Shown here: piece by piece, positions 935-20,203 of the stretch
How positions within the stretch are numbered: the stretch's first letter is position 1
Layout of the letters: every line of letters begins with the position of its first letter
Assembly (NCBI GenBank): GCA_029288725.1
Contig: JARIGS010000010.1
Coordinates: forward strand, 23,947-87,946
Reading direction: 5' to 3'
DNA: 64,000 nt
Source: Candidatus Nomurabacteria bacterium
GTDB lineage: Bacteria; Patescibacteriota; Minisyncoccia; Phycocordibacterales; UBA9973
The notes under the pieces: generated by a model
The model's database searches: none
The model's input: the letters and a program-made list of their open reading frames with translations, nothing else
What the model was told of the DNA's origin: nothing
Translations under genes and position numbers: made by a program

Positions 935-937
935 ATT

Positions 938-3400: not shown

Positions 3401-3496
3401 GCCTTCTCGAGATAGAACCTTTCGGTTCATTGCCCCATAAGCTCCGTTTTTAATACTTTGATAAAAAATACCGACCCTTCTCGTGCGTAGCAAAAT

Positions 3497-3758: not shown

Positions 3759-3776
3759 GGATATTAGTTTAATGGC

Positions 3777-4019: not shown

Positions 4020-4034
4020 AACGTTTGAATTTGT

Positions 4035-5657
4035 TTAAAGAAATCTTTTGGAAAGCCTGTGTTTGGATGGGAGCTTGCGGATTGCTTCCGCAGCCGCCTG
4101 TGCAAGCTCTGGATCATCTTTTTCTGGAACCATAGCGTTGTGAAGCGTGGTTTGACAGAAACAATAATCCAAAATGAAAGAGCTGCTACCTGCAACACGG
4201 TGATCTATTGCTAAAGAATTTAAAGCAGCTATTGCGACATGGTGATAGTTATCCGCTCCAAAGTGAGCCTCTGAGTGAGTGATGATGCCGGTATCGTTCC
4301 AGTGGTCATTGATAGTATCTAACGCTAGACAATGATAGTACGTGTACAGGCAGTCTTTCTTCTTTTGCAGAAAATGCTCAGGGTCATTCAAAACATCATT
4401 CAGCAAGCTATTGCTCGGCCCAAGTAACATGTCGGATGCGGTGTTGATCTTAAAAATTTTATCAATACCTGAAGGAAACTTCTCGCCTGATCCTTCTTCA
4501 AAAAGAAGATCAAACTCACCGCTATCTACAAAGGCTTCAACGATCTTTACCAGGTCTGTAATTGGCTGTAAAAGAACTTCCATCTTTTTAGAGCGAACCA
4601 TATAACCATTAAATATATCAGTAATATGCTGAACGCCCTGCTCAAGCTGCAATGGGGCACTCCCTATCACGCTCAACCCTGGCAACACATCTCTGTATTT
4701 GGAAATTTTTCGAACAATTTCCTCCATATCCCATTCTTGCGAAAGGATACCCCAGTTGAGTGAATTGGAATCAATAATTACCCATCTTCCGTCCCTCACC
4801 TGTATGACAGGGCAAACGTGAAATGAGTGCATCATATCATCCAGATCTCCAATCCTTATTCCTGCTTCAAGGCTATCCATAAACTCTGGATCAGGAAATG
4901 TGATGGAGCGTGCTTCAATGTCTTTTTTAATTTCAGAAGCTTTCTTTTGCCTGAGATCATCCAAAACATCCCGAGCAGTTTTGTTAGGAAGCATGACTAC
5001 CGTTTTAGCTCCTACCATCTCTGCAAATGCCAGTATCATTTGTGTTTTGCCCTGACAGTTTGCACGGTTGTCACTTTTGTTCCATTTCCCATACCCTAGG
5101 GGAAAAACGCTATCGAAGCCGTATCGGCTATTTCTTATTTCGATCTTACGTCTAAATTCAGCAAAAAGCTCTTTAGACGATATGGTCGTTTTTTCGCGTT
5201 GATCCTCGGTATGGAACAGATAGTACAGTTTTTTCGTAAGCTCAACCTGTTCGTCGGCGGTTGCAGATTTCCATTCTTTGGCAATCTGTTTTGCCTCGTC
5301 TGGCAAATTTTTCTTTGCAGCAGTAACGAGAGCCTTTCCTAACCCTCCGATCATTGCCCTCATCTCAATCCCATGACCATATTTAGAATGGGTATTAGAA
5401 GATTCAATAAGTGCCTGTTTTTCAGGATAAGAGTTTAGCAGCACACCAGATACTAAGTGCCCGGCTCGCAGCATTTTACCTTCATCGGTATGCTCAGGGT
5501 ATTTCTCAAAAAGCAGTTTCTGGTTTTTGAGCAAAGAAGTGTAGATTTTTGACCTCTTGAATGAGGTAAGATTTACTCCACACCCTTGTGTGAGCGCAAA
5601 ATCAAATAGTTCTTTAATATTCATGTTAATGTGCTTTTGGTTAAAATTTTTACTCAT
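4035..5657 (-). CDS. 540-aa protein with transglutaminase-like (papain-fold) Cys-His-Asp core
   Basis: NCQGKTQMILAFAEM (Cys) ... MMHSFHVCPVIQVRDGRWVIIDSNS (H..W..D pattern), with C-H-D spacing typical of transglutaminase-like cysteine peptidases. Confidence 0.45.
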   Translation of the reverse strand: MSKNFNQKHINMNIKELFDFALTQGCGVNLTSFKRSKIYTSLLKNQKLLFEKYPEHTDEGKMLRAGHLVSGVLLNSYPEKQALIESSNTHSKYGHGIEMRAMIGGLGKALVTAAKKNLPDEAKQIAKEWKSATADEQVELTKKLYYLFHTEDQREKTTISSKELFAEFRRKIEIRNSRYGFDSVFPLGYGKWNKSDNRANCQGKTQMILAFAEMVGAKTVVMLPNKTARDVLDDLRQKKASEIKKDIEARSITFPDPEFMDSLEAGIRIGDLDDMMHSFHVCPVIQVRDGRWVIIDSNSLNWGILSQEWDMEEIVRKISKYRDVLPGLSVIGSAPLQLEQGVQHITDIFNGYMVRSKKMEVLLQPITDLVKIVEAFVDSGEFDLLFEEGSGEKFPSGIDKIFKINTASDMLLGPSNSLLNDVLNDPEHFLQKKKDCLYTYYHCLALDTINDHWNDTGIITHSEAHFGADNYHHVAIAALNSLAIDHRVAGSSSFILDYCFCQTTLHNAMVPEKDDPELAQAAAEAIRKLPSKHRLSKRFL

Positions 5658-6764: not shown

Positions 6765-6915
6765 AACCACAACCGAATATTACAGGTGTTGCCCCGCACG
6801 ATAGTGCCATGCTCGCTTCGTAGAGAAAGCCCAGAAAATTAGGAATAGTTTTTTGAGTCTTCATCGCGAAGCGAGCTTTCTTGTTCTAATTACAAAAATT
6901 AAACAAGCAACTATC

Positions 6916-8193
6916 ATGAACAACATCATATGGCATACGGAAGTACGCCAAGTATCTAGTCTCCACTCATGGAGTGAAAACCCCCGCAAGCTCTCAAAAA
7001 GTGCGTTTGCAAAGTTAGTCGGGCGCATTCAGGAGCGCGGATTTCATTCAGTACTAGTGATTGATACCGATGACACCATCCTCTCTGGCAATCAGCGAAA
7101 GACCGCATTGGAGCATCTTAAGATTGAAGAAGTCACTGTATTGATACCAAACCGAAAGCTCTCAGAGGAAGAGCGGAAGAAGATCGCCCTTGAAAGCAAT
7201 CTTAACGATGGGGAATGGAATTACGAGATGCTCAAGTCCTTCGATATCGATCTTGTTACCGACATCGGCTTCGACATGTCCGAGCTTTCAAAGTTTTGGG
7301 ACAAGGATCTAGAAGTAACAGAAGAAGAATTCGACGAGGAAAAGGAAATTAAGAAGATAAAAGTTCCCGTAACTGAGTTCGGAGATCTCATTATCATGGG
7401 CGGTCATAAGCTGCTCTGCGGAGACTCGACTGATCCAGAAGCGGTAAAGAAACTGTTCGGAAACGACAAGGCGGCGGTCATCTACAGTGATGCAATTTTT
7501 AACATTGGCTTGAGCTATGACGGCGGCGTGGGCAACAAATCTAGTTACGGCGGTACGGTTGACGACAACAAGTCAGCTGAGGAATATAAAGAATTTATCA
7601 AGAAAACGATTGTGAATGCACTGTCTGTCTCAAAGGATGATGTTCACTGCTTCCAATGGTGCGATGAGGCCTGGATCTGGGTTTTTCAAACCATATACAA
7701 CGAGCTCGGTATCAAGAACCGACGAGTGAATGTATGGTTGAAGAACAACGCATCGCCCGTGGCCCAAGTGGCATTTAACAAGGCACTTGAATTCTGCGTC
7801 TATGGCACGAAGGGATCTCCATTTCTGTCTCCATTATACACCAATCTTAACGAGATCATGAATCCAGAACTCGGAACAGGAAACGATCTCTATGAGCAAG
7901 TGACAAATGTCTGGGCGCACAAGCGTCTGCCAAGCAATCAGCTCGAACATCCAACGAGCAAGCCGCCAGAACTTCACAAGAAGGCACTGCTCCGCTGTTC
8001 AAAGCCAGGAGACATCATCTTCGACTCCTTCTCGGGATCGGCGAGTACAATGATCTGCGCAGAACAGTTGAAACGAAAAGTATATTCCTTGGATATAGAA
8101 GGCGTCTTCTGTGACTTGGCCATTCGCCGTTACGAAAAGTTCACAGGAAAGAAAGCAGAAATAATCAAACACTTCTATGAAAAAGAATACTAA
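6916..8193 (+). CDS. ParB-like N-terminal nuclease domain fused to a beta-class DNA (N6-adenine/N4-cytosine) methyltransferase
   Basis: VLVIDTDDTILSGNQRKTALEHL (ParB box). HPTSKPPELHKKAL (motif IV) then IIFDSFSGSASTMI (motif I FxGxG). ATG at 6916; the ORF track starts earlier at a TTG. Confidence 0.75.
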   Translation: MNNIIWHTEVRQVSSLHSWSENPRKLSKSAFAKLVGRIQERGFHSVLVIDTDDTILSGNQRKTALEHLKIEEVTVLIPNRKLSEEERKKIALESNLNDGEWNYEMLKSFDIDLVTDIGFDMSELSKFWDKDLEVTEEEFDEEKEIKKIKVPVTEFGDLIIMGGHKLLCGDSTDPEAVKKLFGNDKAAVIYSDAIFNIGLSYDGGVGNKSSYGGTVDDNKSAEEYKEFIKKTIVNALSVSKDDVHCFQWCDEAWIWVFQTIYNELGIKNRRVNVWLKNNASPVAQVAFNKALEFCVYGTKGSPFLSPLYTNLNEIMNPELGTGNDLYEQVTNVWAHKRLPSNQLEHPTSKPPELHKKALLRCSKPGDIIFDSFSGSASTMICAEQLKRKVYSLDIEGVFCDLAIRRYEKFTGKKAEIIKHFYEKEY

Positions 8194-8593
8194 GAAGAAC
8201 GAGTTCATTGATCAGCTCCGCAAGATTCCCATTGTCTTGGTCGCCTGCGAAAAGACATCGATTGCTCGCAACACGGTATACCGTTGGCGCAAGGAGGATG
8301 AATCGTTCGCAACGGCTATGGATGACGCGTTGCTCGAAGGCGAAGCACTGATCAATGACATGAGCGAGAGTCAACTGCTTACCATGATCAAGGAAAAAAA
8401 CTGGTCGGCGATCAGCTTCTGGCTTCGTCATCGCAATCCGAAGTTCAGAGACAAGGTTGAGATAACTCATTCCACGAAGGATAAGGAGCTTACCAACGAA
8501 CAAAAGGCATTGATTGAAAAAGCGCTACAACTCACTACCTTCTCGCAAGACAAGGCACTTGAAATATTATCAGGCACTACAAATGAAAAATAA
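8177..8593 (+). CDS. putative phage terminase small subunit (HTH)
   Basis: SIARNTVYRWRKEDESFATAMDDAL HTH typical of TerS N-termini; overlaps the MTase gene end and the TerL gene start. Confidence 0.5.
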   Translation: MKKNTKKNEFIDQLRKIPIVLVACEKTSIARNTVYRWRKEDESFATAMDDALLEGEALINDMSESQLLTMIKEKNWSAISFWLRHRNPKFRDKVEITHSTKDKELTNEQKALIEKALQLTTFSQDKALEILSGTTNEK

Positions 8594-10109
8594 ATATATG
8601 AATATATTAAATAACAAGGAGCTGATCGAAACTATTATCAAGGATCGTGAGGTGCGCCGCGCACTGACCAAGGAGAGCCATGAGTATTTCTTCCCCGTAT
8701 ATTTTGGGGAGTATATAAAATATCCCAGTGCGCCCCTTCATACGGAAATGATCAAGATCACGGAAAACACTGACGAGCAGTTGTCGGTGGTGGTGGCATT
8801 TCGTGGTTCTGCAAAATCCACAATCTTCTCTTTGTCATATCCCATCTGGGCGATATTGGGAAAGCAACAAAAGAAGTTCGTGCTCATAGTGTCCCAGACA
8901 CAGGTGCAGGCTCGGCAACTCCTCACCAACATCAAAGAAGAGTTGACGAACAATCACCTGCTGAAGAGCGACCTCGGACCATTTGAAGAGCCAGACGACG
9001 AATGGCGTGCGGCTTCCATTGTGCTTCCGCAGTACGGTGCCCGTATCATGGTCGCATCAAGCGAGCAAAGCATTCGTGGCATACGCCATAAAAGCTATCG
9101 TCCAGATCTCATCATTCTCGACGACATCGAGGACATTGCCTCCTCCAAGACAAAAGAGGGTCGCGACAAGACGTTTCGATGGCTTGCAAGCGAGGTGCTT
9201 CCTGCGGGAGATGTCACAACGAAAGTCATTCTTATTGGAAACCTTGTTCATGAGGATTCAGTCATCATGCGTCTTCGGCAAAAGATTAAGCTTAAGGAAA
9301 TCAAAGGAAGCTTCTCTATGTATCCGATCATGGATGAGCAGGGAGTGAGCTTGTGGCCCGGGAAATTCCCGACACCAGAATCGTTGAAAAACGAGGAGAC
9401 GAAAGTGCTCAATCCGCAGGCATGGTTTCGCGAGTATCTGCTTAAAATCATTCCCGAGGAAGGACAGGTAGTCTTTCCAGAATGGTTTCAATATTACGAC
9501 ACCTTGCCAACCAAACATCAGCGCGCCTACCGTTGCACGTATTCGGCGGTTGACTTGGCAATATCTCAGAAAGACAGTGCTGACTATACGACTGTTGTCA
9601 CGGCATATGTCTATGGGCGTGCGGACAAGATTCGCATATACATTCTGCCAAACCCAATCAACAAAAAGCTGTCATTTCCTGCACAAGTGGAAATGCTGAA
9701 AGGTCATGCAGCGATTGCTTTGCCGAATTCTTCCGACAAGCTTTTTGTTGAAAGCGTCGCATACCAAGACGCACTGCCGCAAATGCTCAAAACCCAAGGG
9801 GTGCATGCGATTGGCGTAAAGCCGCAAAATGACAAGCGCACACGCCTTGCACTGACGACTTCCTATATTCAATCGGGACGAGTGAAATTCCCCCAGAAAG
9901 GGTGCGAAGATCTCATTCAGCAACTGGTCGGTTTCGGTATTGAAAACCACGATGACCTTGCTGATGCATTTTCGTTGCTCATTCTGCAGATTGCGGAGCG
10001 ACATCTTAATGAGTCGACATGGATGATATGCTTCCTTGGTGGGTCAAGCTACGATAAGAACGGGACTATTTATTATGATGACTATATTGACGTGGAAACA
10101 GGAAAATAA
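8583..10109 (+). CDS. phage terminase large subunit (ATPase + RNaseH-like nuclease)
   Basis: Walker A AFRGSAKST, Walker B LIILDDIEDI, nuclease region SAVDLAISQKDSADYTTVV. ATG 8583 chosen (overlaps the TerS stop by 11 nt); alternative upstream start 8514. Confidence 0.8.
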   Translation: MKNKYMNILNNKELIETIIKDREVRRALTKESHEYFFPVYFGEYIKYPSAPLHTEMIKITENTDEQLSVVVAFRGSAKSTIFSLSYPIWAILGKQQKKFVLIVSQTQVQARQLLTNIKEELTNNHLLKSDLGPFEEPDDEWRAASIVLPQYGARIMVASSEQSIRGIRHKSYRPDLIILDDIEDIASSKTKEGRDKTFRWLASEVLPAGDVTTKVILIGNLVHEDSVIMRLRQKIKLKEIKGSFSMYPIMDEQGVSLWPGKFPTPESLKNEETKVLNPQAWFREYLLKIIPEEGQVVFPEWFQYYDTLPTKHQRAYRCTYSAVDLAISQKDSADYTTVVTAYVYGRADKIRIYILPNPINKKLSFPAQVEMLKGHAAIALPNSSDKLFVESVAYQDALPQMLKTQGVHAIGVKPQNDKRTRLALTTSYIQSGRVKFPQKGCEDLIQQLVGFGIENHDDLADAFSLLILQIAERHLNESTWMICFLGGSSYDKNGTIYYDDYIDVETGK

Positions 10110-11231: not shown

Positions 11232-12254
11232 TTAAGGCTGGTTACCAACAGTCATCTGATTGAGGTATTTCCTCAAATCTTCTATCGTCTCAATCTGTTT
11301 TGTCTTATGCATGTAAGGCAGCTTTACCCATATGTTGATCGTGATGAATGCTCTCAGGAGAACTTGGTCATATTCTTCACCATCAAAGTATCCCTCGACA
11401 AGTTGCTTGGTTACTTCGTCCAATCCAACCTTTGAAGCAAGGATAATGCTTCTGGCTATGTCCATATATGGATGATGGAAACAAGCCCATGGGTCAAAGA
11501 CCGTAAGAGGCTCCGTAGCGAACACGTTACCAGTATGAAAGTCGTTGTGACAATACACTGTTTCTTTATTATTACCAATACGAGAAATGATCAATCTGCA
11601 TACTTCCTCTATTGATCCATGATCTCTATCATTTAAGAGCTGGTTCTCCTTCACATATGCAAACTGCTCCTTTGTGCGAGTGTCGCTCTCAAGCCACTCC
11701 GCAACCGTCTGGTACCCTGGCCCCTTCTTGTCATTCACTATATTGCTGCAGCCCTCCGTCTTGGTGGCGTGCATTTTTCTTAGCATCTTGCCCAAATCGT
11801 AATAGGCTCTCTTTTCCAAGAGTTCCTCGTTGCTGTATTTCTGAATCAAGGTCTGCGCTTCGATATATTCCATGAGTACATAGAAGTGGTCTCCTAACGT
11901 GCCCTCTTCAAAGACATGAGGTACTCTTACTCCACTGTCTTCCCATACCTTAAGGAACGACCCTTCTAGTCCCGAAGTGAGCAAGCTCAATGGCACCTTA
12001 AGAATATATTTTTGCTCCATTGTATCGAGAATGCAGACCAGTGATGAAACCCCTGCATGGAGAAAGGTAATGTCAACTTTCTTACTCAAAAACAAGAAAT
12101 GGTTACTTATAAAATCCTTAAGCACTGGAAGGAGTGCTGTTCGGCGTTCGTTGAAATTGGTGTCCGCTTCGTGCTCGGACAGCTTTGGCTCATTGAGGAA
12201 AGTGATCCTATTGGGATCTTGAAGATTGTCGTTCATCCACCAATTATACTCCAA
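11232..12254 (-). CDS. phosphotransferase enzyme family protein (APH/choline-kinase-like fold)
   Basis: CHNDFHTGNVF (catalytic HxDxxxxN) and FDPWAC (metal-binding D). Confidence 0.65.
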   Translation of the reverse strand: MEYNWWMNDNLQDPNRITFLNEPKLSEHEADTNFNERRTALLPVLKDFISNHFLFLSKKVDITFLHAGVSSLVCILDTMEQKYILKVPLSLLTSGLEGSFLKVWEDSGVRVPHVFEEGTLGDHFYVLMEYIEAQTLIQKYSNEELLEKRAYYDLGKMLRKMHATKTEGCSNIVNDKKGPGYQTVAEWLESDTRTKEQFAYVKENQLLNDRDHGSIEEVCRLIISRIGNNKETVYCHNDFHTGNVFATEPLTVFDPWACFHHPYMDIARSIILASKVGLDEVTKQLVEGYFDGEEYDQVLLRAFITINIWVKLPYMHKTKQIETIEDLRKYLNQMTVGNQP

Positions 12255-12351
12255 GTTCTATTTTGAGAGTATTGATACGATTGCGAGTATGCTATGAAAT
12301 ACTTATCCTGCATAGCTATGCATCACCAACCAGTCTGTCATTAATATAGGT

Positions 12352-13671
12352 ATGGAAACGACAGCTATCGGCAAGATTCCGAGCAACATATCCATTTCGG
12401 AGACGAGGGTCAGATACTGCCTGTATGCCCGAAAATCGACCGAGTCGGACGAGCAGCAGGCACTGTCCATAGACTCGCAGATCAAGGAGATGACGGATAT
12501 TGCGGAGCGACTAAAACTCAACGTGGTCATGGTGAAGCGAGAGTCACATTCCGCAAAGGAGTCTGGACAGCGACCAGTGTTCAAGGAATTGCTGGAAGAA
12601 ATCAGAGACGGAAAATGCGACGGTATTCTCACATGGGCACCAGACCGACTGAGCAGAAATGCTGGCGATCTTGGAACCGTTGTCGATCTCATGGATCAAA
12701 AGAGGCTGATTCACATTCAGACGTACGGACAGACATTTTCCAATTCACCAAATGAGAAATTTCTGCTGATGATATTATGTTCACAAGCGAAGCTTGAGAA
12801 TGACAATAAAAGCATCAACGTGAAGCGTGGGCTTCGGGCAAGAGTCGAGATGGGACTCTGGCCGTGCAGACCGCCGACTGGATATACAAAATACAAGCGT
12901 ATTGATCAGAAGTGCGAGTCAGTGATTGATCCAGTGCGAGCGCCAGTTATCAAGCAGATGTTTGAGAAAATTGCATATGACGGCTGGAGCGGAAGAAAGC
13001 TGTACCATTGGCTGAAGGACGACATCAAGTTCAGGACGGAAAACAACATGCCATTGAGTCTCGGCAATCTCTACAAGATTCTGGAGAACCATTTCTATTA
13101 CGGACGATTCGAGTTCCCGAAGCAGTCTGGCAACTGGTACAACGGCGCGCATGAGCCGATCATTACGAAAGACCTGTTTGACCTTGTTCAGGAAAGGATA
13201 AAGAGTCAGATACTTCAGCCACGGTCAGAGCAAAAGGAGTTTGCCTTCACCAAGATCATGACCTGCGGACTGTGCGGCTCTGGCATCACTGCAGACGAGA
13301 AGTTCAAGAAGCAGAAGAACGGCAACGTCCACCGCTATGTCTATTACAAGTGCACCCGTGTCAAGGATTCGCAGTGTCCCAGCGGATACATCAACGAAGA
13401 AGAACTCGTTACCCAGTTGCAGGATCTGATGGACGACGTTGAGATACAGACGGTGCCAATGCGGGAGAAGATAACGGCGGAGGTACACCGCTTCAAGAAG
13501 TTTGAGCAAATGCTACTGGGAACAAAGACGACAGTGTCGGTGAAGGATATCGATATCCGCAACTATGCCAAGTTCATTCTGCTTGAGGGAACAATGGACG
13601 AGAAGCGAGAGTTTCTAAGGTGTTTGAAGAGCGAGATCGTGTTGAATAACAAAAGGGTTTCATTAAAATAA
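12352..13671 (+). CDS. large serine recombinase (resolvase/invertase catalytic domain + recombinase domain + zinc ribbon)
   Basis: YARKSTESDEQQALSIDSQ (catalytic Ser), DRLSRN, GLWPCRPPTGYT, CGLCG...YYKC. Confidence 0.85.
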   Translation: METTAIGKIPSNISISETRVRYCLYARKSTESDEQQALSIDSQIKEMTDIAERLKLNVVMVKRESHSAKESGQRPVFKELLEEIRDGKCDGILTWAPDRLSRNAGDLGTVVDLMDQKRLIHIQTYGQTFSNSPNEKFLLMILCSQAKLENDNKSINVKRGLRARVEMGLWPCRPPTGYTKYKRIDQKCESVIDPVRAPVIKQMFEKIAYDGWSGRKLYHWLKDDIKFRTENNMPLSLGNLYKILENHFYYGRFEFPKQSGNWYNGAHEPIITKDLFDLVQERIKSQILQPRSEQKEFAFTKIMTCGLCGSGITADEKFKKQKNGNVHRYVYYKCTRVKDSQCPSGYINEEELVTQLQDLMDDVEIQTVPMREKITAEVHRFKKFEQMLLGTKTTVSVKDIDIRNYAKFILLEGTMDEKREFLRCLKSEIVLNNKRVSLK

Positions 13672-13688
13672 TGTGGTATAATAGAAGC

Positions 13689-13895
13689 CACTTGTAAATT
13701 GAAAAGCCACCCATTTTTTTATCTTTTTATAAAAAAGATTTCAAAGATAAAATGTCCCGATCATGACGGCACTGAGCTGGCTACCGCCTTAACAGTACAG
13801 TCGGAATCGTATCATTGATTTCTTTGTCCTTTGAGAGATTAGTCCTTAGAGAGGTAGGTAGTCCGCTATCAACAATGACAGTTTTACAAGTAGTT
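13689..13895 (+). ncRNA. candidate retron non-coding RNA (msr-msd) upstream of the RT
   Basis: Extended -10 TGgTATAAT at 13674-13682 predicts a TSS near 13689. Inverted repeat ACTTGTAAA (13690-13698) / TTTACAAGT (13883-13891) resembles a1/a2. Internal hairpins ATCTTTTT-ATA-AAAAAGAT (13721-13739) and GGGGTGG-N12-CCACCCC (13897-13922). Boundaries are approximate. Confidence 0.35.
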
Positions 13896-14010
13896 CGGGG
13901 TGGTTTTGTTATTGTCCACCCCACAGTTAGTGTATGGAATTATTCGTAATTGCATTACTGCTTATTTTCCTCACAATTCGTGAGTCGAATAAGTAAGGGC
14001 TAAGACCTCA

Positions 14011-14907
14011 GTGGATAATGAAAAATTATATTCCTCAAAGAAATACCTCCTAACGCTCCTTGGAATAAAGGAAAACTTTCTGTACCCCAATTTCTCACAA
14101 AAATACAAAGAAAAGAATATCCCCAAAAAGAATGGCGGCATTCGAAAAATTAAACCACCGCAATTTAACCTCAAGAAACTCCAAAAGGTTGTCCTTGAAA
14201 AAATACTCCGTATACATCCTCAGTTGCCATGCGTGTACGGTTTATCAAAGGATAGGAACATCACCAGTAATGCAAAACTTCACCGGAAAAATTTTGATAA
14301 CCAGTTAGTCGTTTTGGACATTGAAAACTTTTTTCCAAGCATAACAAAAAAGCAAATAGTTCAAGTATTTAAGAAAATCGGTTTCAATAAAGAAAATTCT
14401 TTGATACTTGCGAAAATTTGCACCGTTGATGATTGCTTACCCCAAGGCGCACCAACCAGTCCGTACCTCGCTTCTCTCGTTTGCATTAAACTGGATAAAG
14501 AAATATACCAATACTGTAAAAAACATAATTTTGAATACACAAGATATTTTGATGACATTAGTGTCTCAGGGAAAAACATACTGCCCAAACATATTAAAGA
14601 TATAGAAAACGCTATCCGTAAACACGGTTTTACCTGTAACGCAGAGAAGAAGAATTTTTATGACACAGGTAAGGATAAGATTATAAATGGTGTACTAATT
14701 ACTGAAAATGGGCTATCAGTAACAAGTTCTTACAAAAAGGAAATTGAAGATATTTATAATGCATTAATCAATAGTCGGACTATTGAAAACAAAAGGTCAT
14801 TTTCGGGCAAGTTTGGATTTTATTTACACATAAACAGGAAAGAAGCCGTTGCTTTTTTAGAAGGAATGAAAAAAGGAATAACCTCGCTAGCGTATAACCA
14901 TGATTGA
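14011..14907 (+). CDS. retron-type reverse transcriptase
   Basis: VLDIENFFPSITKKQIVQVF, LPQGAPTSPYLASLVCIKLD and YTRYFDDISVS align closely with Ec86 RT blocks NIDLEDFFPSL / LPQGAPSSPKLANLIC / YTRYADDLTLS. ~298 aa; no maturase or X domain. Confidence 0.85.
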   Translation: MDNEKLYSSKKYLLTLLGIKENFLYPNFSQKYKEKNIPKKNGGIRKIKPPQFNLKKLQKVVLEKILRIHPQLPCVYGLSKDRNITSNAKLHRKNFDNQLVVLDIENFFPSITKKQIVQVFKKIGFNKENSLILAKICTVDDCLPQGAPTSPYLASLVCIKLDKEIYQYCKKHNFEYTRYFDDISVSGKNILPKHIKDIENAIRKHGFTCNAEKKNFYDTGKDKIINGVLITENGLSVTSSYKKEIEDIYNALINSRTIENKRSFSGKFGFYLHINRKEAVAFLEGMKKGITSLAYNHD

Positions 14908-15568
14908 AATAGATAGCAAGATTTTCAAAACCAAAAAGGATACCGAGGATTTTATTCGTACGATACTTTACAAGTACCCCCTAAATGAGCCACTGATCGG
15001 AGAAGACTTGGCTTTTGTCTCTAGCCTGCTTGAACTTCACCCCGACAAGGACACGAAAATAGGAGCTGGAGTCAGCTCAATCATCACTGAAGCCGACAGC
15101 GAGTTCAATAAAACCAGACATTTTTCTATTGTTAGAGTGGACGGTACGATCGTCGATTTTAGTTTTAAAAAATGTTTGTCACCAGTACCGAATGAACCTA
15201 TCAAATTGTTCCGATCTTGTGCAAGGCGTGCAGTTGCAGATCAAGCTCTGTCTTTCAGGGACAAGTTTTTTCTTGAGAATCAGAATTCCGATGGAAATGT
15301 CGCATGTGCGCTTACTGGTGTTTTGATTAATAAAAATAATTCACACATTGATCATATCGCCCCAGCTACGTTCGACAAGATTGTTTTGGATTTTATTGCT
15401 ATAAACAACATTGATGTAAGTAAGGTCAAATTTATTGAATCGCTAAACGGGATAGGTAGAGTATTTGCTGATAACAATTTAAAAGATACCTTTTCTACAT
15501 ATCACAAAAATGTTGCCATGCTACAGGTCGTATCGCCTGTGGCCAATTTAAAGCAGAAAAAGAAGTAA
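14900..15568 (+). CDS. HNH-like nuclease-motif protein (paralog 2), translationally coupled to the RT (ATGATTGA overlap)
   Basis: CALTGVLINKNNSHIDHIAPATFDKIV (HxDHIxP). 8-nt overlap with the RT stop. ~70% identical to 2659..3360. Confidence 0.6.
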   Translation: MIEIDSKIFKTKKDTEDFIRTILYKYPLNEPLIGEDLAFVSSLLELHPDKDTKIGAGVSSIITEADSEFNKTRHFSIVRVDGTIVDFSFKKCLSPVPNEPIKLFRSCARRAVADQALSFRDKFFLENQNSDGNVACALTGVLINKNNSHIDHIAPATFDKIVLDFIAINNIDVSKVKFIESLNGIGRVFADNNLKDTFSTYHKNVAMLQVVSPVANLKQKKK

Positions 15569-15589
15569 AAAAATCTTCTCTTTTGCAAT

Positions 15590-16105
15590 TTATAATTTTC
15601 CCATTCTCTTCAAAACTTTTTCTGTAAGATCGTCTATATTTTCCTGATTACTAATATCAGGAGATAGTTTTTTTAAAATCACATCTAATTCCATGTATGA
15701 TTTTTGGTCACCAATTTTTGCATAAAAGTGCTTTAGTCCAATAATGATTGATTCTGTCAACATTTTGACATAAGGTAAGGAGCTAACTGCGGTATAGTGA
15801 TAACCTGCAATTCGTTCAAAATCAAAATCGTCATTAAAAACATCAAATGAATCAAGAAGGGCTCCATAAGAAACATGGGTATAGCTAGAGAGCATTCCGT
15901 AAATACCCGCCTTCACCTCATCAAACGGTATTTTTTCATTAGGCTTTTCTTGATTATCAGAATACTTTTGATATTGTTTTCTTGCTACTTCATTCCCAAC
16001 AATTTTACCCTCGAACCATTTGATTAAATCAGGATTTGTATCGTCACTGTCTAGGAAGTAAAATGCCAAGTCTAAAGCTTCTTGTGACGATCGAACAATT
16101 TCCAT
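15590..16105 (-). CDS. hypothetical protein
   Basis: 171-aa ORF; may be the distal part of a gene disrupted together with 16260..16487. Confidence 0.4.
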   Translation of the reverse strand: MEIVRSSQEALDLAFYFLDSDDTNPDLIKWFEGKIVGNEVARKQYQKYSDNQEKPNEKIPFDEVKAGIYGMLSSYTHVSYGALLDSFDVFNDDFDFERIAGYHYTAVSSLPYVKMLTESIIIGLKHFYAKIGDQKSYMELDVILKKLSPDISNQENIDDLTEKVLKRMGKL

Positions 16106-16259
16106 TACCTCATAATGAAATCCATCGGCTGCTAAATGGAAAATTGCCGATAGTCCTTGAGAAGCTTTGCCAAATAATATATAGGCGGCAGTAATTTTAT
16201 TTTGATCAATGGCATCCTTAATGTGAAGTCGGACCTGTCGAATGTATGGAAAAAACTCA

Positions 16260-16487
16260 TTAAAACATTTTTTTTAAAACTTCCACCTTTTTAAGAATAA
16301 AAACCTTGTCTGCCTCCATCTGCTCATATGGAAAATTAGGATTTTGATTCAAAAAATCCTTAACTTTCTCTTGCTGATCCTTGTACTTCTTGATACGTTC
16401 TGCTATTGAAAGTTGCGCTTCTTTTTTAAGGGGGTTAATGTTATCCATTGTTTTTAAACCACGAGTTCGATTCTCAAAAGGGTGCAA
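16260..16487 (-). CDS. hypothetical small protein (possible fragment)
   Basis: 75-aa ORF ending at a T8 homopolymer; a 150-nt gap before the next same-strand ORF. Confidence 0.3.
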   Translation of the reverse strand: MHPFENRTRGLKTMDNINPLKKEAQLSIAERIKKYKDQQEKVKDFLNQNPNFPYEQMEADKVFILKKVEVLKKMF

Positions 16488-16514
16488 AATCCTGATTTTG
16501 AAAATACCCTTAAA

Positions 16515-16546
16515 ATGTATGCTTCTCGTGCTAGCACGAGATGGTG
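16515..16546. repeat. 32-nt direct repeat copy B (TGTATGCTTCTCGTGCTAGCACGAGATGGTGA), overlapping the last 6 nt of tRNA-Glu
   Basis: 30/32 identity to 3369..3400. Confidence 0.6.
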
Positions 16547-16615
16547 ACCCTACGGGGAATCGAACCCCGATTTAAGCCTTGAGAAGGCTCCGTCCTAACC
16601 GTTAGACGATAGGGC
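16541..16615 (-). tRNA. tRNA-Glu (anticodon CUC), CCA encoded
   Basis: Reverse complement GGCCCTATCGTCTAACGGTTAGGACGGAGCCTTCTCAAGGCTTAAATCGGGGTTCGATTCCCCGTAGGGTCACCA. 7-bp acceptor stem with one G-U, T-loop GGTTCGATTCC, anticodon loop TTCTCAA. Confidence 0.85.
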
Positions 16616-16659
16616 CAAGTGCTGCATAACTATAATGAACGATGGTGTATAATGCAAGC

Positions 16660-17157
16660 ATGAAAAAAAGATATTTTTTGCTTATCTTTGTGGTGCTGTT
16701 TGCGGCATCGATGTATGGATTGGTGGCGACGGTGGAGAATAGTACACCGACGGTTAATACTCCTGCTGCAGGATTGTCGTCTGAGCAAGTGCCGCCAGTG
16801 CAGAAGGATGATCTGATCATGGTGACTGCGCCGCTGACCGGGCAGACCGTGACCTCGCCGTTGATGATCAGTGGCAAGGCAAGAGGGAATTGGTATTCCG
16901 AAGGCGTCTTTCCGGTCGAGCTGACGACTGATGACGGTTCGATCATTGCATCGGGTGAAGCTCATGCCGAAGGCGAATGGACGACGACCGACTACGTGCC
17001 ATTTACTGCTACGCTGACATTTCCGACCAGCAATCCTTCGCTTCGCTCAGGAGCTACGGCAGAAACATCCACTATGGGATACGTCGTATTGAAAAAGGAC
17101 AACCCTTCCGGTGATCCGCAGTTTGACAACTCCGTATCAATCCAAGTACAGTGGTAG
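16660..17157 (+). CDS. secreted Gmad2-like immunoglobulin-fold protein
   Basis: Signal/TM MKKRYFLLIFVVLFAASMYG; -10 TATAAT at 16648 with a short leader. Confidence 0.45.
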   Translation: MKKRYFLLIFVVLFAASMYGLVATVENSTPTVNTPAAGLSSEQVPPVQKDDLIMVTAPLTGQTVTSPLMISGKARGNWYSEGVFPVELTTDDGSIIASGEAHAEGEWTTTDYVPFTATLTFPTSNPSLRSGATAETSTMGYVVLKKDNPSGDPQFDNSVSIQVQW

Positions 17158-17158
17158 T

Positions 17159-17938
17159 ATGCAAGGTACACCAGTTTCCAAAAAAATATTGCTCGGGCTA
17201 TTGCTTGTCGTACTGGCAATCATCGGCGCATTGTTCTATGCACATCGCGCTTCCAATGTTGTCGTGGCACCGGTCAATGAAAACACTCCCATGCCTGCGG
17301 CCGGCGACTGGCCTTCTACGAAAGTCAGTGAGGCAAACATTACTGACAACAAAAGTTACTACACTATTTCTGCCGTCTATCCTGTAACCAGGGATGCCGT
17401 CATTACCGGCTACTTCAAGACCTTTGTCGAGCAGGCCATTGCACAGTTTAAGGATGACACCTCATGGGCGGCAACTGATGCAAGTACTGCACCAGCAGAA
17501 GCGGCCGCACTAACGCTCAACATTACTTATACCGAACAGAAGGGTACCTATGCCGACAACTATATCTTTTCAACTACAACCTATACTGGCGGTGCTCACG
17601 GCCTTGCATCAACCAAGACCTTTTCATTCTCCTCAACTGGTCAGCTGGTCTCGCTTAGCTCACTGTTTACCAATGGCTTGAACGGCCTCAAGACTGTTGC
17701 ACCATATGTGAAGTCACAATTGGCAAGCACGCTGCCCGCCGGTGATCAGTCATTTATCGATAGTGGCACCGAGGCAACACAGGACAACTATCAAAGCTTC
17801 GTCGTGTCAGACGATGGCGTACTCTTTATGTTTGACCCATATCAGGTCGCACCGTACTCAGACGGTCAGCAAAGCGTCAAAGTACCACTAACAGTATTCC
17901 GCAGCATCGCCAGCCCCGATATCTTTCCTACTCGGTAG
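17159..17938 (+). CDS. membrane-anchored DUF4163/DUF3298-like protein
   Basis: N-terminal TM, YPVT...ITGYF...F pattern. Confidence 0.5.
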   Translation: MQGTPVSKKILLGLLLVVLAIIGALFYAHRASNVVVAPVNENTPMPAAGDWPSTKVSEANITDNKSYYTISAVYPVTRDAVITGYFKTFVEQAIAQFKDDTSWAATDASTAPAEAAALTLNITYTEQKGTYADNYIFSTTTYTGGAHGLASTKTFSFSSTGQLVSLSSLFTNGLNGLKTVAPYVKSQLASTLPAGDQSFIDSGTEATQDNYQSFVVSDDGVLFMFDPYQVAPYSDGQQSVKVPLTVFRSIASPDIFPTR

Positions 17939-18995
17939 TGCGCTCGATTGGACTGACATCCACCAACAATGGTTCTATGTCATTGCCTGAACCGGTAATG
18001 CGCATGACATCCTTGTCCACCTTTTTCAATTCCTTGCCGGCATTGCTGTAATGATTGACGACAGTCGTGAGAGAATTACCAATCTTGTTATGGTATTCCT
18101 CATATGACTTCAAATGCTTGCCCAATTCCTCAACGCGCTTGACGATATCCTTGGCGCTTTCCTCGATTTGCATTGCACGCAATCCCTGAAGGACGGTCTG
18201 AAGGTATGCCAAAAATGATGTTGGAGAAACGATAATGACCTTCTTTTCAAATGCGTACTGGACCAAGTCCTGAGTGTTGACCTTGATGCTGCCGACTTCC
18301 GCTACCAATAAATCATAATAAATGGATTCGTGAGGGATGAACATAAACGCAAAGTCGAGGGTATTCTCAGCCGGACGGATGTATTTGGAAGTCTCATCAA
18401 TGCGCTTCTTGATATCCTTGCGGAATTCGTTTACAAACTGCTCGGCATCACTGCCGTTTTGATTTGATTCAATGATGCGGTTGTAGTTTTCCAGTGAGAA
18501 CTTTGAGTCAACGGGAATAATTTTATCTTTAACCATCACGACGGCATCTACAATCTCACCGTTATTGAACTTGTATTGTGTCTGAAATGTTTTTGGCGGA
18601 AGGACCTTGGAGAGGATTGTTTCCAAATAGTATTCACCGAGGATGGTGCCGCGCTGCTTAGGGTTTTTCAAAATATCTTGAAGATTGCGAAGCTGATCGG
18701 CAAAGCCAATGACCTGCTTGTTACCCTCATCGAGACGAGTGAGACGTTCGGTGATATCACTGATGATGCTGTTTGAGACAGCGGACTGGTGCATCATTGA
18801 TTCACGAATGCTTTTTTCTGATTCGCCCAGCTTCTGGTCAACGGTCTTTTGCAGCTCACTGACCTGCTGCATGAGCAATTGAAAGCCCGTAGTGTTGTCT
18901 TCTTTAGTAACTGGCTCGCCGCCTTTTCGTTCGGCAAAAAGATAGACGATCACGCCTCCGCCGACTAGCCCAATGAGTATGTAGAGTAATTGCAT
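17928..18995 (-). CDS. rmuC: DNA recombination protein RmuC
   Basis: N-terminal TM plus coiled coil, conserved RmuC C-terminal region (FMFIPHESIYYDLL...VIIVSPTSFLAYLQ). Confidence 0.85.
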   Translation of the reverse strand: MQLLYILIGLVGGGVIVYLFAERKGGEPVTKEDNTTGFQLLMQQVSELQKTVDQKLGESEKSIRESMMHQSAVSNSIISDITERLTRLDEGNKQVIGFADQLRNLQDILKNPKQRGTILGEYYLETILSKVLPPKTFQTQYKFNNGEIVDAVVMVKDKIIPVDSKFSLENYNRIIESNQNGSDAEQFVNEFRKDIKKRIDETSKYIRPAENTLDFAFMFIPHESIYYDLLVAEVGSIKVNTQDLVQYAFEKKVIIVSPTSFLAYLQTVLQGLRAMQIEESAKDIVKRVEELGKHLKSYEEYHNKIGNSLTTVVNHYSNAGKELKKVDKDVMRITGSGNDIEPLLVDVSPIERTTE

Positions 18996-18996
18996 G

Positions 18997-19716
18997 TTAT
19001 TTTACGTATTTTTCTAATGTATAAATCCAGTCCGTTTCGTCCTTGTCACTTTTGCGCTTCTGGTCAAGCAGCCAGGAAAGGTAGCCGATGTCCATTGATG
19101 CCACTTCGGCCACGGTCTTGCCATTGTATTTGCCGAAGTTGATGGTCTTGATTGCCAATGGCTCGTTGGTAACAGCCATCATTTTTTGTAGGGCAGTAGC
19201 TTCATCACAATTCCAGGCCTTCATTGCTTCCTGTAATTCATATTCGAACAACTGTTCAAGGACCAGGACATCTGCCATTGCCTCATGAGCGGGAACATCG
19301 AGTTCCATGCCGAGGGCATAGCGCAGGTATTGCAGCTTGTGCATTGAAAAGCGACCCTCATTATCGAGTTCGCGGATAACCTTGAAGGTGCAGAGCAGAT
19401 TCTTGATGGTGATGTCATCATTCTTTAAAATCTGCTGATCAAATGGGGCATTGTGAGCGACGCAAATGGTGTCATCACTTTCAAGTAATGCCTTAAGCTC
19501 AGCGTATTCTGCTGCGTCCTTAAATGACGGGCGATTAGCAACCATGGGGTTGGAAATATGGTGAATGGCAGAGCATTCGAAGGGGATTGGCACTGGTGGC
19601 TTGTAGAGGGCATTGACGATTGGTTCGTCCGCACCGCGTTCCTTGATTGCCAATTGGCACAAGTAATCACCGGTACCATTTCCTGTTGTTTCTGTATCAA
19701 AAAAGACTATCTTCAT
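18997..19716 (-). CDS. DnaQ-like 3'-5' exonuclease (DEDDh; ExoX/Pol III epsilon-like)
   Basis: KIVFFDTETTG (Exo I), VAHNAPFD (Exo II), HEAMADV (Exo III). Start at MKIVFF (19716). Confidence 0.8.
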   Translation of the reverse strand: MKIVFFDTETTGNGTGDYLCQLAIKERGADEPIVNALYKPPVPIPFECSAIHHISNPMVANRPSFKDAAEYAELKALLESDDTICVAHNAPFDQQILKNDDITIKNLLCTFKVIRELDNEGRFSMHKLQYLRYALGMELDVPAHEAMADVLVLEQLFEYELQEAMKAWNCDEATALQKMMAVTNEPLAIKTINFGKYNGKTVAEVASMDIGYLSWLLDQKRKSDKDETDWIYTLEKYVK

Positions 19717-19747
19717 GCACCTATTGTACCATGCTATAATTCGGCAT

Positions 19748-20203
19748 ATGACAATTGCAACACAAGTACGAGAAGACATGAAGCAGGCAATGCGCGACAA
19801 GGACCAGGTAGCGCTCGATACCTATCGTGGTGTGCTCAGTGCCTTTACCAATGAATTGGTCACTAATGGCAAGACGCCACAGGATGAAGTAACTGACGAT
19901 AGTGCATTGAAGGTGATTGTGAAGCTGATCAAGCAGCGCAAGGATGCCATTGCTCAGTTTGAAGCGGGAGGTAGGGCAGATCTTGCTGAGGAAGAAAAGA
20001 AACAACTCGCCTTGCTTGAGAAATTTCAGCCAGCGCAAATGAGCGAAGCCGACATTCGCGTCATTGCAGAAAGGAAAAAGGCCGAGCTCAATGTTACTGA
20101 CAAAGCCAAGGCCGGCATTCTCACCGGTGCGGTCATGAAGGAAGTCTCCGGCCAAGCCGATGGTGGTACCGTGAAGGCGATAGTGGAAAGTTTGTTTGAA
20201 TAA
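19748..20203 (+). CDS. GatB/YqeY domain protein
   Basis: MTIATQVREDMKQAMRDKDQVALDTYRGVLSAF... typical YqeY. Confidence 0.85.
   Translation: MTIATQVREDMKQAMRDKDQVALDTYRGVLSAFTNELVTNGKTPQDEVTDDSALKVIVKLIKQRKDAIAQFEAGGRADLAEEEKKQLALLEKFQPAQMSEADIRVIAERKKAELNVTDKAKAGILTGAVMKEVSGQADGGTVKAIVESLFE

What the first reader, a model, noticed from the sequence alone, without database searches (positions are those of the whole stretch)
13672..15568. Retron-like module: promoter/ncRNA, retron RT and an overlapping HNH-like effector that does not fit the retron effector classes I know
The RT (14011-14907) carries retron-specific blocks nearly identical to Ec86 (xDIENFFPSI, LPQGAPTSPYLASL, YTRYFDD, INGVLI). 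It is ~300 aa with no maturase or DGR features. Directly upstream there is an extended -10 (TGgTATAAT, 13674-13682). The predicted transcript start coincides with ACTTGTAAA, whose reverse complement TTTACAAGT lies ~190 nt downstream, an a1/a2-like pair typical of msr-msd. The RT stop overlaps (ATGATTGA) the start of a 222-aa protein. That protein has a conserved unknown N-terminal domain and an HxDHIxP HNH core (SHIDHIAP) but none of the other Zn-ligand or ATPase partners of Septu-type retrons. From memory only, the retron effector classes I recall are ATPase+HNH, NDT, TIR, 2TM, protease and cold-shock. RT plus a lone small HNH-like protein is not among them, so this may be an undescribed retron or defence-RT variant.
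Basis: partly seen in the sequence, partly recalled or inferred. Interest (0 to 1): 0.85.

Follow-up and report, generated by a model that had tools for sequence, protein, structure and literature searches.

The report
Orphan-lineage retron with portable HNH nuclease
This is a real retron-type reverse transcriptase with a conserved structured RNA, from a lineage seen so far only in tiny "Patescibacteria" cells; the small nuclease gene joined to it belongs to a known, wandering family (HamC/DUF3223), so it is probably not a retron-specific partner.

Summary
The 298-aa protein is a retron-family RT. PADLOC gives RT_III-A 9e-69, and its nearest non-Patescibacteria relatives are type III-A retrons. 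The 330-nt leader upstream is conserved in 12 related loci, and covariation supports the a1/a2 pair, a hypervariable msd-like hairpin and a 3' pseudoknot. No conserved branching G lies next to a1.

The 222-aa protein is not an unknown. It is DUF3223/DeCL plus an HNH fold, the family PADLOC calls HamC (Hachiman type II accessory) and PHROGs lists as phrog_28887.

Only two closely related loci, this window and one metagenomic contig, pair this RT with that protein. Eight other distinct loci of the RT lineage whose downstream flank could be read lack it. Close homologues of the nuclease sit beside Gabija (a second copy in this window), Hachiman, ABC-3C and an RM gene. In phage contigs they sit between replication and nucleotide-metabolism genes, with the same 3-4-nt junctions.

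Best reading: an orphan-lineage retron carried by a tRNA-Glu serine-recombinase island, onto which a portable DeCL-HNH gene has been spliced. Co-option as the retron's effector remains possible, at about 0.3. This is a new variant of a known kind, of moderate interest.

The parts
13674..13682 (+). Extended -10 promoter element TGGTATAAT
   Evidence: Sequence. TGnTAYAAT is conserved 6-10 nt upstream of a1 in all 10 complete homologous leaders. The generic -35/-10 scan did not list it.
13686..14010 (+). Structured leader/ncRNA of about 325 nt, the retron msr-msd candidate plus a 3' extension reaching the RT start codon
   Evidence: An nhmmer profile hits only upstream of RTs of this lineage, E 1e-19 to 1e-82. 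Covariation: 94.7% of cells paired, 12 pairs with double changes, at most 1 of 500 shuffles as high. MFE z = -3.1. No Rfam family matches.
13690..13698 (+). a1, the 5' arm of the terminal inverted repeat; it pairs with a2 at 13883-13891
   Evidence: Compensatory or wobble changes occur in L009, L091, L122 and L168.
13703..13712 (+). Strand B (AAAGCCACCC), a long-range partner of 13898-13907 that competes with hairpin H
   Evidence: 65 of 65 cells paired, 5 cells with double changes, 0 of 500 shuffles for the covariation score.
13721..13739 (+). Conserved short hairpin Hp1 (msr-like)
   Evidence: 97.5% of cells paired across 10 sequences.
13742..13826 (+). Hypervariable long hairpin (msd-like stem-loop)
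   Evidence: In 10 of 10 loci a segment of 78-143 nt with unrelated sequence folds into one long hairpin of 22-48 bp, z -1.5 to -5.5.
13827..13852 (+). Conserved single-stranded block with two TTGAGAG-type repeats and GTCC motifs
   Evidence: Nearly invariant columns in alignments A4 and A7.
13853..13870 (+). Hairpin Hp2 with a GTAGTC loop
   Evidence: 87% of cells paired. The same loop motif occurs in the 5' msr part of some type III-A-like loci (L012, L013, L028, L095).
13872..13879 (+). Strand X, which pairs with X' (13908-13915) inside the loop of hairpin H to make a pseudoknot
   Evidence: 97.9% of cells paired; 6 of 8 pairs show compensatory changes.
13883..13891 (+). a2, the 3' arm of the terminal inverted repeat
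13897..13922 (+). Hairpin H (GGGGTGG / CCACCCC) whose loop carries X'
   Evidence: 95.2% of cells paired; 4 of 7 pairs compensatory.
13928..13993 (+). Two further conserved hairpins just upstream of the RT start (the second has arms 13961-13974 and 13980-13993)
   Evidence: I1. Both hairpins recur in the MFE folds of most of the 12 homologues, with different sequences.
14011..14907 (+). Retron-type reverse transcriptase, 298 aa, GTG start
   Evidence: PADLOC RT_III-A 8.9e-69 and RT_II-A 5e-67. Pfam RVT_1. NCBIfam retron_St85 199 bits, below its 235-bit cutoff. NAKLH (NAxxH) is present, YFDD replaces YADD and ING replaces VTG.
14900..15568 (+). DeCL(DUF3223)-HNH protein, 222 aa (HamC / 'DCL family' / phrog_28887); its start overlaps the RT stop
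12352..13671 (+). Large serine recombinase of the island that carries the module (context)
   Evidence: Pfam Resolvase, Recombinase and Zn_ribbon_recom. An 81%-identical orthologue in L169 precedes Gabija plus DCL-HNH.
16517..16616 (-). tRNA-Glu(CTC) (16542-16616) with an att-like repeat (16517-16550); this is the probable island boundary, and a second copy of the repeat lies at 3370-3403

Best explanation
The locus holds two things joined together.

(1) A retron-type retroelement. An extended -10 promoter drives a highly structured leader RNA of about 325 nt and a 298-aa RT. Both belong to a lineage found so far only in Patescibacteria. Its nearest classified relatives are type III-A retrons, and it normally has no conserved partner gene, so it is an 'orphan' retron lineage. 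By analogy with retrons (inferred), the RT copies the hypervariable hairpin region of the RNA into msDNA, and this RNA-DNA-RT complex acts as a phage sensor.

(2) A portable DeCL-HNH nuclease gene of the HamC / phrog_28887 family, spliced precisely onto the 3' end of the RT gene and therefore co-transcribed with it. Genes of this family insert with 3-4-nt junctions next to many unrelated genes: Gabija, Hachiman, ABC-3C and RM in bacteria, and RNR, primase/helicase, PolIII and ThyA genes in phage contigs. Its presence here is therefore most simply explained by its own mobility, or by its role as a generic island or defence-island gene, and not by a retron-specific partnership.

The whole module is cargo of a serine-recombinase island at tRNA-Glu. 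A related island carries Gabija in the same slot between the same recombinase and the same nuclease gene.

Shown: family assignments, RNA covariation, gene order and distribution. Inferred: msDNA synthesis, a defence role, and nuclease activity.
For: Retron identity:
- PADLOC retron RT models score down to 8.9e-69, and NCBIfam ranks retron_St85 far above group II and DRT models.
- The nearest non-Patescibacteria relatives (L011-L013, L015; 32-36% identity over the full-length alignment, 37-41% in the best tblastn segment) carry PRTase_III-A plus WH_III-A upstream.
- NAxxH is conserved.
- The leader is conserved in 12 loci with covarying helices and a long hypervariable hairpin.

Orphan status: L005/L008, L009, L010, L088, L091, L179, L180 and the P0025 contig share no neighbour and lack DUF3223.

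Portability of the nuclease gene:
- A second copy, 75% identical, lies at 2659-3360 divergent from GajA.
- L169 has an 81%-identical recombinase, then GajB-GajA, then a 77%-identical DCL-HNH. DNA homology to the window stops inside the recombinase tail and restarts exactly at the nuclease ATG.
- Other homologues lie beside HamA/HamB, a type IIG RM gene and ABC-3C.
- The RT-linked and Gabija-linked proteins form one tight clade.
- In phage contigs the family lies between RNR large and small subunits, after primase/helicase, and between PolIII-alpha and ThyA, with 3-4-nt junctions.
- PADLOC's authors found HamC in only 3.8% of Hachiman systems, 'either upstream or downstream'.
- The defence cassettes have 30-36% GC against 45-49% in the surrounding sequence.
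Against: - The 8-nt stop/start overlap, kept as a 3-nt spacer in L004, leaves the nuclease gene with no promoter of its own. In most retrons, a gene in that position is the effector.
- A nuclease is a typical retron output, as in types I-A, I-B and VII.
- An orphan retron needs some output, and none is identified for this lineage.
- The closely related nuclease genes (72-77% identity) have completely different flanks. This does not fit classical site-specific homing.
- No msDNA, nuclease or defence data exist.
- The absence of a conserved G 3' of a1 leaves the msDNA step itself unverified.
Confidence: 0.5

Rival explanations
1. A genuine two-gene retron system of a new type. The RT and its msDNA sense phage infection and control the co-translated DeCL-HNH protein. 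The DeCL domain binds the msDNA or RNA, and the HNH domain cuts or nicks nucleic acid to abort infection. On this reading the HamC family is a plug-in effector that Hachiman, Gabija and retrons have each recruited.
For: - The stop/start overlap ATGATTGA and the 3-nt spacer in L004 imply obligatory co-expression.
- The HNH fold is supported, with D151/H152/P155 nearly invariant.
- The DeCL domain occurs in RNA-handling proteins, and DUF3223 of Tetrahymena Mlp1 is needed for tRNA-mediated suppression (PMC9705548).
- The family is already counted as an accessory of a defence system.
- Retron effectors are known to be modular, and Mestre 2020 speculates that orphan retrons may use unknown effectors.
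Against: - Only one evolutionary instance is known: the window and L004, 79% identical in DNA.
- Eight other distinct loci of the lineage keep the RT and ncRNA without it.
- None of about 150 more distant retron RT loci has it.
- The same nuclease subclade stands with its own promoter next to Gabija, and stands without any recognised partner system in L171. It is therefore unlikely to need a retron as antitoxin.
- Tight junctions are a trait of the family in phage contigs too.
Confidence: 0.3
2. The RT and leader are not a classical msDNA-producing retron. The RNA is a rearranged or regulatory template. It has a pseudoknot, two mutually exclusive helices, and an msr-like hairpin 3' of the variable stem. 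The RT may prime differently or make another product, as the defence RTs DRT2 and DRT9 do.
For: - No conserved G follows a1 or any other conserved 5' helix strand.
- About 70 nt of conserved sequence plus a pseudoknot lie between or after the msd-like stem and a2.
- Strand H5 has two covarying partners.
- The lineage is a solo RT plus ncRNA, the same layout as DRT2 (the DRT2 layout is from my own knowledge).
- VTG is replaced by ING and YADD by YFDD.
- Rfam has no matching msr family.
Against: - The RT clusters with retron RTs and not with DRT or UG models: about 40 bits against 199-230 bits.
- The terminal inverted repeat, short hairpin and long hypervariable hairpin form the defining retron layout.
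- The variable hairpin shares no sequence between homologues, so it cannot encode a conserved product.
Confidence: 0.12
3. The DeCL-HNH gene is a backbone gene of the serine-recombinase island, serving for example island maintenance, exclusion or transfer. The retron is simply the variable cargo between the recombinase and this backbone gene.
For: L169 and the window share the recombinase (81%) and the nuclease (77%), with different cargo between them. Both nuclease copies in the window lie near the att-proximal end of their island. L004 shows the same layout.
Against: Homologues occur without any recombinase nearby, next to Hachiman (L001) and in phage replication modules. DNA homology covers only the ORF and not a larger backbone block.
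Confidence: 0.08

Closest known systems
Type III-A retrons (PRTase-like plus winged-helix effectors; e.g. Retron-Eco11)
   Same: PADLOC's best RT model is RT_III-A. The nearest relatives outside the lineage are III-A loci. Hp2 shares a GTAGTC-loop hairpin with some III-A-like ncRNAs.
   Different: No PRTase or WH genes are present. The RT lacks the N-terminal extension of about 35 aa and has YFDD and ING instead of YADD and VTG. The ncRNA does not match at sequence level. The GTAGTC hairpin lies 3' of the variable stem instead of 5' of it.
Orphan retrons (the Retron-Eco5/Ec107 branch discussed by Mestre et al. 2020, PMC7736814)
   Same: An RT plus ncRNA without a conserved associated gene. Mestre et al. 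suggest that the PRTase partner was lost. PADLOC RT_Ec107-like scores 7.7e-53.
   Different: This is a separate lineage found only in Patescibacteria so far, with its own ncRNA family. It is frequently island-borne.
HamC, the DUF3223 accessory protein of Hachiman type II (PADLOC, PMC8565338); NCBI name 'DCL family protein'
   Same: Full-length HMM match at 2e-36. A 62%-identical homologue sits directly upstream of HamA-HamB. The two-domain architecture is the same in nearly all of the 150 best family representatives listed, out of 957 found.
   Different: No HamA or HamB is present in the window; the neighbour here is an RT. The function of HamC is uncharacterised.
Type I-A retron / Septu PtuB HNH nuclease
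   Different: No PtuA ATPase partner adjoins the RT. The HNH domain carries an insertion of about 45 aa and a DeCL N-domain. No Pfam HNH model matches.
Free-standing HNH homing endonucleases of phages (e.g. T4 MobE between nrdA and nrdB; from my own knowledge)
   Same: A small HNH protein with an extra nucleic-acid-binding domain, inserted between conserved genes with minimal spacers. Examples are RNR large/small subunits and PolIII-alpha/ThyA. Its distribution is sporadic and its neighbours vary.
   Different: Closely related copies share no homologous flanks. No cleavage or homing data exist. PHROGs lists the family as of unknown function.

Membership tests
Retron (RT + msr/msd ncRNA) | RT belongs to the retron clade of prokaryotic RTs | tested here: met
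   All 25 PADLOC hits shown are retron RT models, best 8.9e-69. NCBIfam gives retron_St85 199 bits against group II 48 and Drt2/3 about 40. The score is below the St85 curated cutoff of 235, so this is not an St85-family member.
Retron (RT + msr/msd ncRNA) | [quoted passage not shown] | tested here: inconclusive
   NAKLH is present, with N87 and H91 invariant. VTG is replaced by ING or LNG in most of the lineage (L091 has ITG), and only the G is invariant.
Retron (RT + msr/msd ncRNA) | Adjacent ncRNA whose terminal inverted repeats (a1/a2) enclose msr hairpin(s) and a long msd stem-loop | tested here: met
   a1/a2, Hp1 and a long hypervariable hairpin occur in all complete homologues, with covariation.
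Retron (RT + msr/msd ncRNA) | Conserved branching G immediately 3' of a1 | tested here: not met
   The sequence after a1 is TTG in the window but TTA or TTT in homologues. No conserved G follows a1, B or X.
Retron (RT + msr/msd ncRNA) | Production of msDNA (2'-5' branched RNA-DNA) | not testable with these tools
   This needs a gel or sequencing of RT-DNA.
Type III-A retron | PRTase-like and winged-helix effector genes next to the ncRNA-RT | tested here: not met
   The upstream gene is a serine recombinase. The downstream genes are DUF3223-HNH and a 171-aa ORF with no hits. III-A relatives do have these effectors.
Type I-A retron / Septu | PtuA ATPase plus PtuB HNH adjacent to the RT | tested here: not met
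   No ATPase gene adjoins the RT. Only weak PtuB hits (E 1e-3) fall on the HNH core. The only ATPase nearby is GajA at 938-2554, which belongs to Gabija.
HamC / DCL family (DUF3223-HNH) | N-terminal DUF3223 (DeCL) domain | tested here: met
HamC / DCL family (DUF3223-HNH) | Full-length match to HamC profiles, including the C-terminal domain | tested here: met
   PDLC00202 at 2e-36, covering aa 6-215 of the protein and positions 10-227 of 245 in the profile. The C-domain alone finds 957 cluster representatives, and nearly all of the 150 best listed are two-domain proteins of 210-240 aa.
Hachiman type II system | HamA (DUF1837) and HamB helicase adjacent to HamC | tested here: not met
   tblastn of HamA and HamB from L001 against the window gives no hit.
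HNH / beta-beta-alpha-Me nuclease superfamily (C-terminal domain) | HNH fold with a catalytic D-H pair on a strand and a downstream N/H on a helix | tested here: met
Group II intron / DGR RT | Maturase/X domain or a TR/VR repeat pair | tested here: not met
   The RT is 298 aa. The group II model scores 47.7 bits against a 300-bit cutoff. No direct repeats of 30 nt or more occur in 11500-17500.

The most novel reading that the evidence does not exclude
A new retron type from candidate-phyla-radiation (Patescibacteria) bacteria. Its ncRNA is architecturally rearranged: an msr-like GTAGTC hairpin and a pseudoknot lie 3' of the msd stem, a switch strand has two alternative conserved partners, and no branching G follows a1. 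Its output is a HamC-type DeCL-HNH nuclease. That nuclease would then be a plug-in effector shared by retrons, Hachiman and Gabija.
Probability: 0.2. Interest if true: 0.8.

Novelty: new variant of a known kind. Interest (0 to 1): 0.5.

Why it matters
Three points would matter if followed up.

1. No paper in the searched library describes retrons in Patescibacteria. This lineage adds a compact (about 290 aa) orphan RT and a well-defined, covariation-supported ncRNA family with unusual features. It is useful both for understanding what orphan retrons do and as a possible small scaffold for retron editing.

2. HamC (DUF3223-HNH) has been catalogued as a Hachiman accessory, with no function reported in the papers searched. 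The same family sits next to Gabija, ABC-3C, RM and a retron, and inside phage replication modules. This changes the question from 'what does it do for Hachiman' to 'is it a portable nuclease, a selfish gene or a shared effector'. Simple genetics can test that.

3. The clean cassette swap between the same recombinase and the same nuclease gene (retron versus Gabija) is a tidy example of defence-module exchange in islands of ultra-small bacteria.

Tried and rejected
- Rfam at E up to 10 found nothing relevant in 13000-16500.
- An IMG/VR scan with the RT profile found no viral relatives.
- Pfam and NCBIfam have no model for the C-terminal domain of the nuclease.
- Foldseek with the full-length model found only the N-domain. 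The HNH fold became clear only when the C-domain was modelled alone.
- The nhmmer profile of the leader found nothing in about 150 more distant retron RT loci, so the ncRNA family could not be linked to a described type by sequence.
- The GTAGTC-hairpin scan gives only about 5 distant hits, which is near chance in number, although four share one extended motif.
- I looked for a branching G after a1, B, the msd-base helix and X and found none conserved.
- I considered a DRT2-like 'template encodes a product' idea and rejected it, because the variable hairpin shares no sequence between homologues.
- I considered DGR and group II intron and rejected both.
- The 171-aa ORF at 15590-16105 has no hits and is not conserved next to the nuclease in L004 or L169, so I did not treat it as part of the module.
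Full report
**Observation.** TGGTATAAT lies at 13674-13682. ACTTGTAAA lies at 13690-13698 and its reverse complement at 13883-13891. A GTG-started 298-aa ORF spans 14011-14907 and carries LDIENFFPSI, LPQGAPTSPYLASL, YTRYFDD and INGVLI. A 222-aa ORF spans 14900-15568; its ATG overlaps the RT stop (ATGATTGA) and it contains SHIDHIAP.

**The RT.**
- PADLOC gives only retron RT models among the 25 hits shown: RT_III-A 8.9e-69, RT_II-A 5e-67, RT_Ec107-like 8e-53.
- Pfam gives RVT_1.
- NCBIfam ranks retron_St85 first at 199 bits, below its 235-bit cutoff. Group II intron RT scores 48 bits and Drt2/Drt3a about 40.
- Against an Ec86 RT sequence typed from my memory, identity is 33% over 249 aa.
- A database search found about 70 relatives at 41-83% identity. 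All named or placed ones are Patescibacteria (Nomurabacteria, Saccharibacteria, Parcubacteria). Identity then drops to 42% or less.
- The nearest relatives outside this lineage (L011, L012, L013, L015) have PRTase_III-A and WH_III-A genes upstream, so they are type III-A retrons.
- In an alignment with them the lineage keeps NAxxH (NAKLH) but lacks an N-terminal extension of about 35 aa, has YFDD for YADD and has ING for VTG.
- No TR/VR-like repeats are nearby.

**The RNA.** Upstream regions of ten complete and two partial homologous loci align from a conserved extended -10 (TGnTAYAAT) to the RT start. A profile of this leader hits only this lineage, and Rfam has no match. The order of elements, in window coordinates, is:
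- a1 (13690-98)
- strand B (13703-12)
- a short conserved hairpin (13721-39)
- a hypervariable segment of 78-143 nt that folds into one long hairpin in every locus (13742-13826)
- a conserved block with two TTGAGAG repeats
- a hairpin with a GTAGTC loop (13853-70)
- strand X (13872-79)
- a2 (13883-91)
- hairpin H (13897-903 / 13916-22), whose loop carries X' (13908-15)
- two more conserved hairpins before the GTG start

On the 12-sequence alignment, 94.7% of cells pair, 12 pairs show changes on both sides, and at most 1 of 500 shuffles reaches the observed values. Slid controls fall to 42-58% paired. X:X' (6 of 8 pairs compensatory) and H (4 of 7) form an H-type pseudoknot with a2 in its loop.

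The 5' strand of H also pairs with strand B in every sequence: 65 of 65 cells, with compensatory changes. Two mutually exclusive conserved helices therefore exist.

The overall layout matches the retron definition quoted from Mestre 2020: terminal inverted repeats, an msr-like hairpin and a long variable stem-loop. Three things do not match. No conserved G follows a1. About 70 conserved nucleotides separate the variable stem from a2. The GTAGTC hairpin, which resembles the first msr hairpin of some III-A-like loci (a small sample), lies on the 3' side. The branch point cannot be placed from sequence.

**The 222-aa protein.** It is not an unknown.
- Pfam finds DUF3223 at aa 20-93.
- PADLOC finds HamC at 2e-36 over the full length, plus weak PtuB hits on the HNH core.
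- PHROGs finds phrog_28887, of unknown function.
- NCBI names a homologue 'DCL family protein'.
- The N-domain matches 2k0m and the DeCL domains of plant Pol IV/V by sequence and fold.
- No Pfam HNH model matches any of 62 members.
- The C-domain family has 957 cluster representatives. Nearly all of the 150 best listed are two-domain proteins of 210-240 aa.

**Is it the retron's effector?** The pairing occurs in the window and in one JGI contig (L004), which is 79% identical in DNA across the recombinase tail, leader, RT and nuclease. In L004 a 3-nt spacer replaces the overlap. None of the other fetched RT loci, about 165 in all, has a DUF3223 gene.

Within the RT lineage, L005/L008, L009, L010, L088, L091, L179 and L180 have no shared neighbour. 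The P0025 contig has an N6_Mtase/Eco57I gene and a UvrD-like gene downstream.

Close homologues of the nuclease sit in quite different places:
- a 75%-identical paralogue in this window (2659-3360), divergent from GajA (PADLOC 2e-165), with GajB beyond it
- L169, the same Gabija arrangement
- L001, directly upstream of HamA-HamB
- L003, next to a type IIG RM gene
- L170, next to an ABC-3C system
- L171, next to unknown genes

The RT-linked and Gabija-linked proteins form one clade at 72-77% identity. L169 and the window share an 81%-identical serine recombinase and the nuclease gene. The segment between them is GajB-GajA in one and leader-RT in the other, and homology resumes exactly at the nuclease ATG.

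In IMG/VR contigs and a Sinorhizobium phage, the family lies in replication and nucleotide-metabolism modules. It sits between RNR large and small subunits (a 3-nt spacer and a 4-nt overlap), after replication-initiator and primase/helicase genes (4-nt overlaps), and between an intein-containing PolIII-alpha and ThyA.

Tight junctions and changing neighbours are thus properties of the gene family itself. This removes most of the weight from the overlap with the RT. PADLOC's authors likewise found HamC in only 3.8% of Hachiman systems, on either side of hamAB. No paper in the library reports a function for HamC or links DUF3223 to retrons.

**Context.** tRNA-Glu lies at 16542-16616. A 34-nt sequence spanning its 3' end (16517-16550) recurs at 3370-3403, just after a strong palindromic terminator that follows the paralogue. 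Related sequences flank the homologous elements in L004, L091, L169 and L179. The window therefore seems to hold tandem serine-recombinase islands at tRNA-Glu. Between the repeats are a ParB-like methyltransferase and a large terminase-like ORF (my reading of its translation; no PADLOC hit). The two defence cassettes have 30-36% GC against 45-49% around them.

**Conclusion.** The retron half is solid as a family assignment, at about 0.9 that it is a retron-lineage RT with its cognate ncRNA. It is unusual in RNA architecture, and msDNA synthesis is inferred. The nuclease is a member of a known, portable family. I rate 'portable or independent gene spliced behind an orphan-lineage retron' at about 0.5, 'true retron effector (new retron type)' at about 0.3, and the remaining readings lower. 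This is a new variant of a known kind, of moderate interest, with clear experiments that would decide between the readings.

Noticed in passing
window 2-3360: A Gabija system (GajB 2-934, cut by the window edge; GajA 938-2554, PADLOC 2e-165) lies with a second DeCL-HNH paralogue (2659-3360, 75% identical to the one behind the RT) on the opposite strand. The same arrangement, with an 81%-identical serine recombinase, occurs in L169.
   Followed up: yes
window 3337-3403 and 16517-16616: A 34-nt repeat covering the 3' end of tRNA-Glu(CTC) and a palindrome (CTCGTGCTAGCACGAG) occurs twice, which suggests tandem islands integrated at tRNA-Glu. A strong palindromic terminator (3337-3375) overlaps the end of the paralogue ORF. 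Similar tRNA-Glu remnants lie next to the homologous elements in L004, L091, L169 and L179.
   Followed up: partly
window 6853-10109: Phage-like genes lie inside the putative island. A 446-aa protein matches type II methyltransferase models (PADLOC MTase_II 1.1e-41); its ParB-like N-terminus is inferred from a similar L170 gene that has ParB_N plus N6_N4_Mtase. Two overlapping ORFs (8177-8593 and 8514-10109) look like small and large terminase subunits from their translations; this was not tested with Pfam.
   Followed up: no
window 13703-13712, 13897-13922 and 14011-14019: The strand GGGGTGG has two conserved alternative partners (B and H3). In addition, X'/H3 (TTATTGTCCAC) is complementary to the RT start region GTGGATAAT. 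The leader may therefore act as a switch controlling RT translation or msDNA synthesis.
   Followed up: partly
L172-L178 (IMG/VR) and L181 (Sinorhizobium phage AP-16-3): DeCL-HNH homologues (phrog_28887) lie in phage replication and nucleotide-metabolism modules: between RNR large and small subunits, after primase/helicase, and between an intein-containing PolIII-alpha and ThyA. Junctions are mostly 3-4 nt (57-96 nt in L177). This resembles the behaviour of free-standing homing endonucleases.
   Followed up: partly
contig of P0025 (no DNA held), genes at 1314-5319: A 64%-identical RT of the same lineage is followed, co-directionally and after 57 nt, by an N6_Mtase/Eco57I-like gene and a UvrD-like helicase gene. 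This may be another captured partner set or a separate system.
   Followed up: no
window 15590-16105 (- strand): A 171-aa ORF converges on the nuclease gene and has no hit in Pfam, PADLOC or NCBIfam. It is not conserved in L004 or L169. A terminator-like hairpin (15640-15664 plus a T run, + strand) lies inside its 3' end.
   Followed up: partly
window 1-3000 and 14000-16000: Both defence cassettes have 30-36% GC, against 45-49% in the flanking genome. This fits horizontal acquisition.
   Followed up: no
window 17928-19800 (- strand): An RmuC-like protein (PADLOC RTasRmuC 1.6e-17) and a DEDDh exonuclease-like protein (1.6e-26) lie just outside the island. They are probably housekeeping genes and not defence genes.
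   Followed up: no
L170 2850-5980: A 60%-identical DeCL-HNH gene converges on an ABC-3C-type system (DUF2326, MC6/MC7, CTD10), with a ParB_N-methyltransferase like the window's nearby.
   Followed up: no
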